From the NCBI RefSeq assembly GCF_013315695.1, contig NZ_CP054353.1: a DNA stretch of 64,000 nt. The stretch is one strand, 5' to 3'. Positions 57,001 to 60,000 of this stretch are shown piece by piece. Made by a program: the position numbers. The number at the start of each line of letters is the position of its first letter. Position 1 is the stretch's first letter. This stretch comes from Escherichia coli (GTDB taxonomy: Bacteria; Pseudomonadota; Gammaproteobacteria; Enterobacterales; Enterobacteriaceae).

Positions 57001-60000
57001 CAGCGGGCGCACCTCTTCCGTGCGCTTACGATCATCCAGCACCAGACGGCCTTTCACTTCGCCCGTTTTGGCATCTATCGCCGTGACCGCGCTGTTTACA
57101 GTGTTACCAAACCACAACGTCTGAGTCGTGTTATTGATGGTGGCACCAAACGGCTTGAGATCGTTATGGATCGCCTGCGTCACTTCCAGAGTAACCGGAT
57201 CAAGACGATAAACCACGCCGCCTTTATCCAGTTTGCGGCTTTGCGAAGTGGCGAGCCACAGCGCGTTTTCTTGCTGGCTATAAGCCATTTCGTAGGCACC
57301 TTTACCTACCGCTTTACGCAGCATTTCTTCTGCGGCCTGCGTACTGAATGATGAAGCAACAAGCAATGAACCTAACAGTAATGAACCACGCAGGCGCGAT
57401 GAAAACAGATGACGTAAATGCATGACGACTCCCTTTGATGAACCGATATTTTTGCTGCTTCACAATGCTTCGCTAAGCGTAATCATCGTTACGCCCTTGT
57501 TATAAATGGGAATGGTAATCATTATTTTCTCAAATGTGGAGCATTTCTTGCCGTTACGACTACAATTTTCTCAATTACTTAACGTATCGTGCCGTTTCGT
57601 TTTCCATAAATTTACAATTTTATTACTATGACGGTGTTTTCCCCATTCTTAACCTGGCTTTTTTCATGAAGATTTTTTCCGTCCAACAGACCGTTTTGCC
57701 CGCACTGCTTGTCCTTTCCCCCGTTGTTTTTGCCGCTGATGAACAGACCATGATTGTCAGTGCCGCACCGCAGGTGGTTTCAGAACTGGATACCCCAGCA
57801 GCCGTGAGCGTGGTGGATGGCGAGGAGATGCGCCTGGCAACACCGCGCATTAACTTGTCTGAATCACTGACCGGAGTGCCTGGTTTACAAGTACAAAACC
57901 GGCAGAACTATGCGCAAGATTTACAGCTGTCGATTCGCGGATTTGGCTCCCGCTCCACTTACGGAATTCGTGGTATTCGCCTGTATGTGGACGGTATTCC
58001 CGCCACCATGCCCGACGGACAAGGGCAGACATCCAACATCGATTTAAGCAGTGTGCAAAATGTGGAAGTGCTGCGTGGCCCCTTCTCTGCTCTGTATGGC
58101 AACGCGTCTGGAGGTGTAATGAATGTCATCACCCAGACCGGACAACAGCCACCAACCATTGAAGCCAGTAGTTACTACGGCAGTTTTGGCAGCTGGCGCT
58201 ATGGGCTGAAAGCAACAGGCGCAACGGGCGACGGCACACAGCCTGGCGATGTCGATTACACCGTCTCAACCACGCGTTTTACGACCCACGGCTATCGTGA
58301 CCATAGTGGCGCACAGAAAAATTTAGCCAATGCCAAACTGGGCGTTCGCATTGATGAAGCCAGCAAATTAAGCCTGATTTTCAATAGTGTGGATATCAAA
58401 GCAGATGACCCAGGTGGGCTAACCAAAGCAGAATGGAAGGCGAATCCACAACAAGCGCCTCGTGCAGAACAGTACGACACGCGAAAAACCATCAAGCAAA
58501 CTCAGGCTGGGTTGCGCTATGAGCGTAGCCTGAGCGCGCAAGATGATATGAGTGTGATGATGTATGCCGGAGAGCGAGAAACGACCCAGTACCAGTCAAT
58601 CCCCATGGCCCCGCAACTTAACCCGTCACATGCGGGCGGCGTGATTACTCTGCAACGCCATTACCAGGGGATAGACAGCCGCTGGACACACCGTGGTGAA
58701 CTGGGCGTTCCGCTCACGTTCACTACCGGCCTGAACTACGAAAACATGAGTGAAAACCGCAAGGGCTACAATAACTTCCGCCTGAATAGCGGCGTGCCGG
58801 AATACGGGCAAAAAGGTGAGTTGCGCCGCGACGAACGCAATCTGATGTGGAACGTCGATCCCTATTTACAGACGCAGTGGCAGCTGAGCGAAAAACTGTC
58901 GCTGGATGCTGGCGTGCGCTACAGCTCCGTGTGGTTTGATTCCAACGACCATTACGTTACTCCGGGTAACGGCGATGACAGCGGTGATGCCAGTTATCAC
59001 AAATGGCTACCTGCCGGTTCGTTAAAATATGCAATGACCGATGCCTGGAATATCTATCTGGCAGCCGGGCGAGGTTTTGAAACGCCGACGATTAATGAGC
59101 TGTCTTATCGTGCTGACGGTCAAAGCGGTATGAACTTTGGTTTAAAACCCTCCACCAACGATACAATTGAGATCGGCAGTAAAACGCGTATTGGTGATGG
59201 GCTGCTTAGTCTCGCATTGTTCCAGACCGACACCGATGATGAAATTGTTGTCGATAGCAGTAGCGGTGGGCGTACGACTTACAAAAATGCCGGAAAGACC
59301 CGTCGTCAAGGCGCTGAACTGGCATGGGATCAACGTTTCGCGGGAGATTTTCGCGTAAAAGCGTCCTGGACCTGGCTCGATGCGACCTATCGCAGCAATG
59401 TGTGCAATGAACAGGATTGTAACGGTAACCGGATGCCAGGGATCGCCCGTAATATGGGCTTTGCGTCGATAGGTTATGTACCGGAGGATGGCTGGTATGC
59501 AGGTACGGAAGCGCGTTATATGGGCGATATTATGGCAGATGATGAAAATACGGCCAAAGCGCCGTCTTATACTCTCGTCGGCTTATTCACCGGGTATAAA
59601 TACAATTACCACAATTTAACTGTGGATTTATTTGGTCGTGTCGATAATTTATTCGATAAAGAATACGTTGGTTCTGTCATTGTCAATGAGTCAAACGGGC
59701 GATATTACGAACCTGCACCCGGGCGAAATTATGGTGTCGGCATGAATATTGCGTGGCGATTTGAGTAATTACCTTGATGCCCGGTATTTGCTGGGCATTT
59801 ACGGTAATGACTCCAACTTATTGATAGTGTTTTATGTTCAGATAATGCCCGATGACTTTGTCATGCAGCTCCACCGATTTTGAGAACGACAGCGACTTCC
59901 GTCCCAGCCGTGCCAGGTGCTGCCTCAGATTCAGGTTATGCCGCTCAATTCGCTGCGTATATCGCTTGCTGATTACGTGCAGCTTTCCCTTCAGGCGGGA

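What the first reader, a model, noticed from the sequence alone, without database searches (positions are those of the whole stretch)
57508..57528. Strong Fur-box match between divergent yncE and yncD
gggAATGGTAATCATTATTTT is a near-consensus Fur box in the promoter region shared by a periplasmic beta-propeller gene and a TonB-dependent receptor gene. This suggests the pair forms an iron-regulated uptake unit, alongside the Fur-box-bearing yddB-pqqL cluster in the same window.
Basis: partly seen in the sequence, partly recalled or inferred. Interest (0 to 1): 0.2.

Follow-up and report, generated by a model that had tools for sequence, protein, structure and literature searches.

The report
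Known Fur operator of yncE
This is the already documented binding site through which the iron sensor Fur switches off the E. coli gene yncE; the neighbouring receptor gene yncD (now pqqU) imports the cofactor PQQ, not iron, and mostly ignores Fur, so the finding is real but ordinary.

Summary
The sequence GGGAATGGTAATCATTATTTT is at 57508-57528, between divergent yncE (56362-57423, minus) and yncD/pqqU (57666-59768, plus). It matches 15 of 19 positions of the classical Fur consensus. A matrix I built from 20 experimentally verified K-12 Fur sites gives two overlapping sites 6 bp apart, 14.8 and 10.1 bits. That is a typical moderate Fur operator, not near-consensus: 18 of the 20 verified sites score 17-27 bits. 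About 0.2 such hits are expected by chance in 64 kb, and about 0.005 with a 6-bp partner.

The box is the best conserved block upstream of yncE in 71 other Enterobacterales loci. It sits 85-99 bp from the yncE start and persists in Citrobacter genomes that lack pqqU. It overlaps the conserved predicted yncE -10 and spacer.

Published ChIP-exo places a Fur peak on it. yncE rises 9- to 280-fold in fur mutants of eight strains. pqqU is unchanged in MG1655 and rises modestly in only two strains. PqqU is an established PQQ importer.

Verdict: observation confirmed and already known. The "iron-uptake pair" reading holds for yncE only. The yddA Fur box (2479-2497, 19.5 bits) is also real and known.

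The parts
57505..57529 (.). Fur operator: two overlapping 19-bp Fur sites 6 bp apart (57505-57523, 14.8 bits; 57511-57529, 10.1 bits). The classical 19-mer is 57508-57526 (15/19 match).
   Evidence: Matrix from 20 verified K-12 sites. Identical in K-12. Published ChIP-exo peak P44 maps to window 57504-57516. Best conserved block in 72 aligned upstream regions, the window plus 71 other loci.
56362..57423 (-). yncE, a Sec-exported periplasmic seven-bladed beta-propeller protein: the gene controlled by the operator
   Evidence: ORF, RefSeq annotation, NCBIfam equivalog NF052280 at 562 bits, PDB 3VGZ. Derepressed in fur mutants.
57666..59768 (+). yncD = pqqU, a TonB-dependent PQQ importer. It is divergent from yncE and not, or only weakly, under Fur control.
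   Evidence: Annotation, NCBIfam equivalog NF041535 at 1312 bits, PDB 6V81/9C4O, literature.
57535..57540 (-). Predicted yncE -35 hexamer TCCACA, inside the conserved block CTCCACATT
   Evidence: Conservation in 72 aligned upstream regions and a 17-nt spacer to the -10. This is an inference: no transcription-start data, and it falls below the threshold of the promoter scan.
57512..57517 (-). Predicted yncE -10 hexamer TACCAT (TACTAT in most other genera), inside the Fur operator
   Evidence: alignment. Inference only. Predicted transcription start near 57503-57506.
57476..57495 (-). Conserved stem-loop in the yncE mRNA leader (7 bp stem, loop CGATGA)
   Evidence: All 7 pairs show compensatory changes. 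93% of cells are paired against 33-49% in slid controls, and 0/500 shuffles reach the observed covariation score. Many G-U pairs fit the yncE sense strand. The terminator scan picked up the same repeat on the plus strand.
57454..57472 (-). Conserved leader block CGAAGCAUUGUGAAGCAGC, complementary to the RyhB core (AUUGCUCACAUUGCUUCC): candidate RyhB pairing site
   Evidence: Hybrid energy -20.0 kcal/mol, z -4.9 against shuffles; median -22.9 over 35 species. RyhB activation of yncE is published. The site itself is my inference.
57600..57629 (+). Predicted pqqU core promoter: -35 TTTTCC/TTTCCA at 57600-57606 and -10 TACTAT at 57624-57629 (TAACAT in other genera)
   Evidence: Conserved blocks in the alignment of pqqU-proximal regions from 58 sequences, the window plus 57 loci. 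Inference only. It lies about 70 bp from the right edge of the Fur operator.
57579..57598 (.). Conserved inverted repeat TTAACG-N8-CGTTtc (CGTTAA in other genera) just upstream of the predicted pqqU -35: candidate operator of an unidentified regulator
   Evidence: alignment. Not followed further.
2479..2497 (.). Fur box of yddA (yddA-yddB-pqqL operon), overlapping the yddA ATG at 2480
   Evidence: 19.5 bits. Identical to the K-12 site that Chen et al. scored at 19.6 bits. ChIP-exo peak P47.

Best explanation
57505-57529 is the Fur operator of the yncE promoter. When iron is sufficient, Fe2+-Fur dimers occupy two overlapping sites. These sites cover the spacer, the -10 hexamer and the start point of the yncE promoter, and so keep RNA polymerase off. 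When iron is scarce Fur leaves and yncE is transcribed. The small RNA RyhB, itself Fur-repressed, then raises yncE expression further, probably by pairing with a conserved block of the leader. The divergent pqqU (yncD) promoter lies about 70 bp further on and is essentially outside this control.

Shown by published experiments: Fur occupancy and yncE derepression. Shown here by computation: the motif score, its conservation, and its linkage to yncE rather than pqqU. Inferred: the exact promoter hexamers, the occlusion mechanism and the RyhB pairing site.
For: - Motif: 14.8 and 10.1 bits with 6-bp spacing, the arrangement typical of footprinted Fur sites. The chance expectation is low.
- Conservation: the box is the most conserved block upstream of yncE in 72 aligned regions. 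It scores up to 20.7-22.9 bits in other genera. Its centre lies 85-99 bp from the yncE ATG in 55 of 58 sequences that have both genes (sd 3.1 bp). The distance to pqqU varies more (151-194 bp, sd 9.6).
- About 10 Citrobacter loci lack pqqU upstream but keep the box at 88-91 bp from yncE.
- The conserved candidate -35 (TCCACA), 17-nt spacer and -10 (TACYAT) put the box over the core promoter. A covarying leader hairpin just downstream shows that this stretch is transcribed.
- The region is present at 95% identity or more in 5411 of 5426 complete E. coli genomes.
- Literature: a ChIP-exo peak under iron-replete conditions lies on the box in MG1655. W3110 and CFT073 also have a peak assigned to yncE and yncD. 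yncE log2FC is 3.1-8.1 in fur mutants of 8 strains. yncE is in the Fur iModulons. The Fur box was noted earlier. YncE protein is raised in a fur mutant. RyhB activation is published.
Against: - No experimental transcription start for yncE was found. The predicted promoter matches only 8/12 consensus positions and was not reported by the promoter scan.
- The score is moderate. About 10 sites of this score are expected by chance per E. coli genome, so the motif alone would not prove function.
- An 18-bit hit elsewhere in the window (24355-24373) has no ChIP peak. This shows that matrix hits can be non-functional.
- No footprint or operator mutagenesis of this particular site was found in the papers I could read.
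Confidence: 0.9

Rival explanations
1. Shared bidirectional operator: the same Fur site represses both yncE and yncD/pqqU, so the pair is one iron-regulated unit.
For: pqqU rises in fur mutants of W3110 (log2FC 2.95) and 042 (2.02), and the W3110 ChIP-exo peak is assigned to both genes. The CFT073 peak is listed for both yncE and the yncD fragment. A review suggests that yncD and yncE mRNAs may overlap head to head. Divergent synteny of the two genes holds in 58 of the sequences examined.
Against: pqqU is unchanged in MG1655 (log2FC 0.12, p 0.39) and is absent from the Fur regulon of 7 of 9 strains. Earlier array and ChIP studies found no Fur or iron response. The box centre is about 150 bp from the pqqU ATG and about 70 bp outside its conserved predicted promoter. 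The box-to-pqqU distance is not conserved, and the box persists without pqqU. PqqU imports PQQ, not iron.
Confidence: 0.08
2. Chance AT-rich resemblance: the block is conserved because it is the yncE -10 and spacer, and Fur dependence arises indirectly.
For: The score is moderate (14.8 bits) and intergenic DNA is AT-rich. Another 18-bit hit in the window appears non-functional.
Against: The ChIP-exo peak is centred on the box and seen only in iron-replete cells. Derepression is very large in many strains. In other genera the block drifts towards, not away from, the Fur consensus (20.7-22.9 bits). Two sites spaced 6 bp apart are expected only 0.005 times per 64 kb.
Confidence: 0.02

Closest known systems
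E. coli Fur boxes overlapping the -10/-35 of iron-regulated promoters (for example fhuA, fepA-fes, cirA, entC, ryhB, yddA)
   Same: A 19-bp inverted-repeat motif occurring as overlapping sites 6 bp apart. It lies over the core promoter, is bound under iron-replete conditions, and the target is derepressed in fur mutants. The 19-mer differs from the yddA box in the same window by a single base (AATGGGAATGGTaATCATT versus AATGGGAATGGTtATCATT).
   Different: The score (14.8 bits) is lower than most footprinted sites (17-27 bits). The product, YncE, has no demonstrated role in iron metabolism. The flanks of the yddA and yncE boxes are unrelated (23/120 identical), so the two boxes are not a duplication.
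Bidirectional Fur-controlled spacers such as fepA-fes, fepD-entS and fepB-entC
   Same: Divergent genes share a short spacer that contains Fur sites.
   Different: In those spacers both transcription units are Fur-repressed and both act in enterobactin metabolism. Here only yncE responds strongly. pqqU is a PQQ importer whose predicted promoter lies outside the operator.
Fur plus RyhB coherent control, as described for cirA and shiA
   Same: yncE is repressed by Fur and activated by RyhB. A conserved leader block is complementary to the RyhB core.
   Different: I did not find a mapped pairing site or mechanism for yncE in the papers read. One review states that the computed interaction energy ranks yncE low.

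Membership tests
Fur operator (Fe2+-Fur repressor binding site, Enterobacteriaceae) | Sequence match to the 19-bp Fur motif above chance | tested here: met
   15/19 match to the classical consensus and 14.8 bits with a matrix of 20 verified sites. P = 3e-6 per position, 0.19-0.27 expected per 64 kb. The match is moderate, not near-consensus.
Fur operator (Fe2+-Fur repressor binding site, Enterobacteriaceae) | Overlapping sites spaced 3 or 6 bp apart (binding of several dimers) | tested here: met
   Sites centred at 57514 and 57520, 6 bp apart. Such a pair is expected 0.005 times per 64 kb. The criterion is from Chen et al. 2007.
Fur operator (Fe2+-Fur repressor binding site, Enterobacteriaceae) | Position over the core promoter of the regulated gene | tested here: inconclusive
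   The conserved candidate -35 TCCACA, 17-nt spacer and -10 TACCAT place the box over the spacer, -10 and start point. No experimental start site was found, and the hexamers match only 8/12 consensus positions.
Fur operator (Fe2+-Fur repressor binding site, Enterobacteriaceae) | Conservation of the site in orthologous promoters | tested here: met
   The box is present at a fixed distance from yncE in Escherichia, Citrobacter, Salmonella, Enterobacter, Klebsiella, Raoultella, Kluyvera, Lelliottia and others. The median best score is 16.8 bits.
Fur operator (Fe2+-Fur repressor binding site, Enterobacteriaceae) | Fur occupancy in vivo or in vitro | not testable with these tools
   Published ChIP-exo peak P44 (v2 1521238-1521250, equal to window 57504-57516), iron-replete only. 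W3110 and CFT073 also have peaks. No footprint was found.
Fur operator (Fe2+-Fur repressor binding site, Enterobacteriaceae) | Fur- and iron-dependent expression of the adjacent gene | not testable with these tools
   Published data. yncE log2FC is 3.1-8.1 in fur mutants of 8 strains and rises 16-fold under iron limitation. pqqU changes significantly in only 2 of 9 strains.
Fur-regulated iron-uptake unit (TonB-dependent receptor plus periplasmic partner) | The receptor transports an iron complex | tested here: not met
   The protein is the PqqU equivalog (1312 bits against a cut-off of 1200) and matches PDB 9C4O, named 'Pyrroloquinoline quinone transporter'. Published work shows PQQ uptake and no contribution to iron acquisition.
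Fur-regulated iron-uptake unit (TonB-dependent receptor plus periplasmic partner) | The receptor gene is under Fur control | tested here: inconclusive
   The operator lies about 70 bp outside the predicted pqqU promoter and is not linked to pqqU in evolution. Published expression data are negative in MG1655 and weakly positive in W3110 and 042.
Fur-regulated iron-uptake unit (TonB-dependent receptor plus periplasmic partner) | The periplasmic partner works with the receptor (binding protein or ABC importer nearby, or a shared phenotype) | tested here: not met
   YncE is a seven-bladed beta-propeller, not a substrate-binding-protein fold. The neighbouring genes are ansP and mcbR, and no ABC importer is adjacent. 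A yncE deletion behaved like the parent in PQQ-dependent growth.

The most novel reading that the evidence does not exclude
YncE and PqqU, kept side by side in most Enterobacteriaceae, might form an iron-responsive PQQ/gluconate module. Under iron starvation, loss of Fur repression plus RyhB activation would raise YncE, which has been proposed as a possible periplasmic gluconolactonase. In some strains pqqU would also rise, boosting PQQ-dependent periplasmic glucose oxidation so that the secreted gluconate helps mobilise iron. The Fur box would then link iron status to cofactor scavenging rather than to a siderophore system.
Probability: 0.08. Interest if true: 0.5.

Novelty: already known. 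Interest (0 to 1): 0.08.

Why it matters
It matters little as a discovery. The yncE Fur box, Fur occupancy, and Fur, iron and RyhB regulation are all published, and yncD has been renamed pqqU after its substrate was found.

The useful outcome is a correction: a Fur box next to a TonB-dependent receptor gene does not make that receptor an iron transporter. The comparative data here show that the operator belongs to yncE alone.

The biochemical function of YncE remains an open question. It is strongly iron-regulated, is a vaccine antigen, and sits next to pqqU in most genera examined.

Tried and rejected
- Wrong layout assumption. I first assumed the whole window had the layout of the 100%-matching strain AF3 (NZ_OZ547117.1) and fetched L002. 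That suggested yddA was truncated and its Fur box missing. A BLAST against K-12 showed that the window is collinear with K-12 from about 1,581,822 down to about 1,517,800, in reverse orientation. yddA is intact with its box at 2479-2497. L002 was discarded.
- The consensus search allowing up to 3 mismatches found nothing, because the site has 4 mismatches.
- The built-in promoter scan found no minus-strand promoter. My first guess of a -10 at TATAAC (57499-57504) was dropped because it is not conserved.
- Duplication of the yddA and yncE operators is rejected: the flanks are unrelated.
- Duplex folding of the whole leader against the whole of RyhB was uninformative. I replaced it with a test of the leader segment against the RyhB core.
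- Rfam has no family in 57300-57800.
- The second ChIP-exo peak inside pqqU (about 57775-57811) has no matrix hit above 2 bits.
- Papers not held: Baba-Dikwa 2008 and Seo 2014. McHugh 2003 was not looked up and is cited only through other papers. The supplements of Beauchene 2015 and Chen 2007 are not held.
- The MG1655 sheet of the Gao 2023 supplement has its gene labels shifted by one row from peak P37 onwards. I re-assigned peaks by coordinate.

Full report
**Observation**

The 21-mer GGGAATGGTAATCATTATTTT is at 57508-57528 as stated. It lies in a 242-bp spacer between two divergent genes.
- yncE is at 56362-57423 on the minus strand.
- yncD, now named pqqU, is at 57666-59768 on the plus strand.

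RefSeq annotation of a strain identical over 56300-59800, and of K-12, names both genes. NCBIfam equivalog models pass their cut-offs: YncE scores 562 bits against a cut-off of 400, and PqqU scores 1312 against 1200. Both proteins match solved structures: 3VGZ for YncE, and 6V81 and 9C4O for PqqU.

The window as a whole is collinear with E. coli K-12 MG1655 from about 1,581,822 down to about 1,517,800, in reverse orientation. The spacer is 98% identical to that of K-12, and the box itself is identical.

**Is it more than chance?**

The site matches the classical consensus GATAATGATAATCATTATC at 15 of 19 positions. That is why a search allowing up to three mismatches found nothing.

To judge the match properly I built my own matrix.
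- I took the coordinates of footprinted or gel-shifted Fur sites from Chen et al. 2007 (PMC2189734).
- I shifted them to the current K-12 coordinates and fetched 20 sites.
- I built a symmetric 19-bp matrix from them.

The matrix reproduces the published scores, for example gpmA 27.6 against 27.4, ryhB 25.5 against 25.2, and yddA 19.5 against 19.6. Those verified sites carry 2-8 mismatches to the classical consensus, so four is typical.

The matrix finds two overlapping sites 6 bp apart: 57505-57523 at 14.8 bits and 57511-57529 at 10.1 bits. Six-base spacing is the arrangement Chen et al. describe for real Fur clusters.

Chance expectations are low.
- Hits of at least 14.8 bits: 0.19-0.27 per 64 kb.
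- Such a hit with a 6-bp partner: 0.005 per 64 kb.
- Per 242-bp spacer at its own AT content: 0.005.

The site is nevertheless weaker than 18 of the 20 verified sites, which give 17-27 bits when each is left out of the matrix. It does not appear in Chen's table of sites of at least 17 bits. About 10 hits of this score are expected by chance per genome. So "near-consensus" is an overstatement. The motif alone is suggestive, not decisive.

**Comparative evidence**

One scan of reference genomes with YncE returned 79 loci from Enterobacterales. I aligned the 170 bp upstream of yncE from the window and 71 of these loci.

The most conserved block is AATAATGATTAC(C/T)ATTCNCAT, which is the box. In Citrobacter, Enterobacter and others it scores 20.7-22.9 bits. 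The Escherichia version is therefore a slightly decayed copy.

Among the 58 sequences that have both genes (the window plus 57 loci):
- the box centre lies 85-99 bp from the yncE ATG in 55 (sd 3.1 bp);
- the other three have a leader deletion;
- the distance to the pqqU ATG ranges from 151 to 194 bp (sd 9.6).

About ten Citrobacter loci have no pqqU upstream of yncE, yet they keep the box 88-91 bp from yncE. The operator therefore travels with yncE.

Within E. coli, the 91-bp stretch around the box is present at 95% identity or more in 5411 of 5426 complete genomes.

**Anatomy and mechanism**

Read on the yncE strand, a conserved CTCCACATT lies immediately upstream of the box. It offers a -35 hexamer TCCACA at 57540 to 57535. 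After a 17-nt spacer comes TACCAT at 57517 to 57512, which is TACTAT in most other genera. On this reading the two Fur sites cover the spacer, the -10 hexamer and the start point. This is the classical occlusion geometry.

These hexamers are inferred. They match 8 of 12 consensus positions, the promoter scan did not report them, and I found no mapped start site.

Support that this stretch is transcribed comes from a stem-loop at 57476-57495 on the minus strand.
- All seven of its pairs show compensatory changes across genera.
- 93% of cells are paired, against 33-49% when the partners are slid by one to three columns.
- 0 of 500 shuffles reach the observed covariation score.

Just downstream, the conserved block CGAAGCAUUGUGAAGCAGC (57454-57472, minus strand) is complementary to the RyhB core.
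- The hybrid energy is -20 kcal/mol, with z = -4.9 against shuffles.
- The median is -22.9 kcal/mol over 35 species.

This fits published evidence that RyhB activates yncE. The pairing site itself is my inference, and one review notes that standard predictions rank yncE low.

On the pqqU side the conserved blocks suggest:
- a -35 hexamer at 57600-57606;
- a -10 hexamer at 57624-57629;
- an inverted repeat TTAACG-N8-CGTT(AA) just upstream at 57579-57598.

This predicted promoter starts about 70 bp beyond the right edge of the Fur operator.

**Published experiments**

- Fur binding. In MG1655, ChIP-exo peak P44 (v2 1521238-1521250) converts to window 57504-57516. It was seen only under iron-replete conditions and had already been found in the earlier ChIP-exo study. 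The published sheet has its gene labels shifted by one row from peak P37 onwards, so I assigned peaks by coordinate. W3110 and CFT073 also have a peak assigned to yncE and yncD.
- yncE expression. The fur-mutant against wild-type log2 fold changes are 3.10, 8.14, 5.30, 5.51, 5.22, 4.20, 3.65 and 5.07 in eight strains. yncE belongs to both Fur iModulons. Several studies list it as Fur-bound and Fur-repressed. YncE protein is overproduced in a fur mutant. A Fur box in its promoter had already been noted by others.
- pqqU expression. It is unchanged in MG1655 (log2FC 0.12, p 0.39). It enters the Fur regulon only in W3110 (2.95) and 042 (2.02). Grinter and Lithgow summarise earlier data as no Fur or iron response, and they show that the protein does not support iron acquisition.
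- Function. Hantke and Friz showed that the receptor takes up PQQ, and that a yncE deletion behaved like the parent strain in their PQQ assays. A later structure confirms high-affinity PQQ binding.

**Verdict**

The element is a functional Fur operator, and it is already known.

The yddA 19-mer differs from the yncE 19-mer by a single base. The flanks are unrelated (23/120 identical), so this reflects a shared binding preference, not a duplication.

The weak pqqU response in two strains leaves a small chance of some coupling between the two promoters. The conserved side-by-side arrangement of yncE and pqqU also keeps open an unproven functional link between iron status and PQQ-dependent metabolism.

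Noticed in passing
window 57476-57495 (minus strand): The yncE mRNA leader carries a 7-bp stem-loop with compensatory changes at every pair across Enterobacteriaceae. It matches no Rfam family. Three loci (Pseudescherichia vulneris, an isolate labelled Escherichia sp. ESNIH1, and an Enterobacteriaceae MAG, UBA7338) have deleted the hairpin together with the RyhB-complementary block.
   Followed up: yes
window 57454-57472 (minus strand): A conserved leader block is complementary to the RyhB core (hybrid -20 kcal/mol, z -4.9; median -22.9 in 35 species). It is a candidate pairing site for the published RyhB activation of yncE. I did not find it mapped in the papers I read.
   Followed up: partly
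window 57579-57598 and 57620-57645: Upstream of pqqU there is a conserved inverted repeat TTAACG-N8-CGTTAA. Other genera also have a second palindrome, AACATGT-N5-ACATGTT, near the predicted -10; this one is degenerate in Escherichia. Both may be operators of unidentified regulators of pqqU.
   Followed up: no
window 24355-24373: An 18.0-bit Fur-matrix hit (AATAATAATACCTATCAAT) lies in the osmC-bdm spacer, about 140 bp upstream of bdm. K-12 has several substitutions there and no hit, and no ChIP-exo peak is reported nearby. It is probably a strain-specific chance match, and a reminder that matrix hits alone mislead.
   Followed up: partly
window ~57775-57811 (inside pqqU, about 110-145 bp after its ATG): The published MG1655 ChIP-exo data list a second Fur peak here (P43, not seen in the earlier study). 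No Fur-matrix hit above 2 bits lies under it.
   Followed up: partly
window 57534-57665: An in-frame ATG at 57534 extends the pqqU reading frame by 44 codons without a stop (a 744-aa ORF against the annotated 700 aa). The annotated start gives a normal signal peptide, so the extension is probably fortuitous.
   Followed up: no
window 14418-15207, 35152-37666 and 50148-53868 compared with K-12: The window departs from K-12 at several points. The dosC region, the yddK/yddL region and the rhsE-ydcD-yncI region are replaced or missing. The strain is not K-12; most complete genomes are 95-99% identical over the yncE-pqqU segment.
   Followed up: no
L001/L002 (strain AF3, NZ_OZ547117.1): In strain AF3, which is identical to the window over yncE-pqqU, yddA is annotated as a 5'-truncated pseudogene. 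AF3 may therefore have lost the yddA promoter and Fur box. This is not the case in the window.
   Followed up: no
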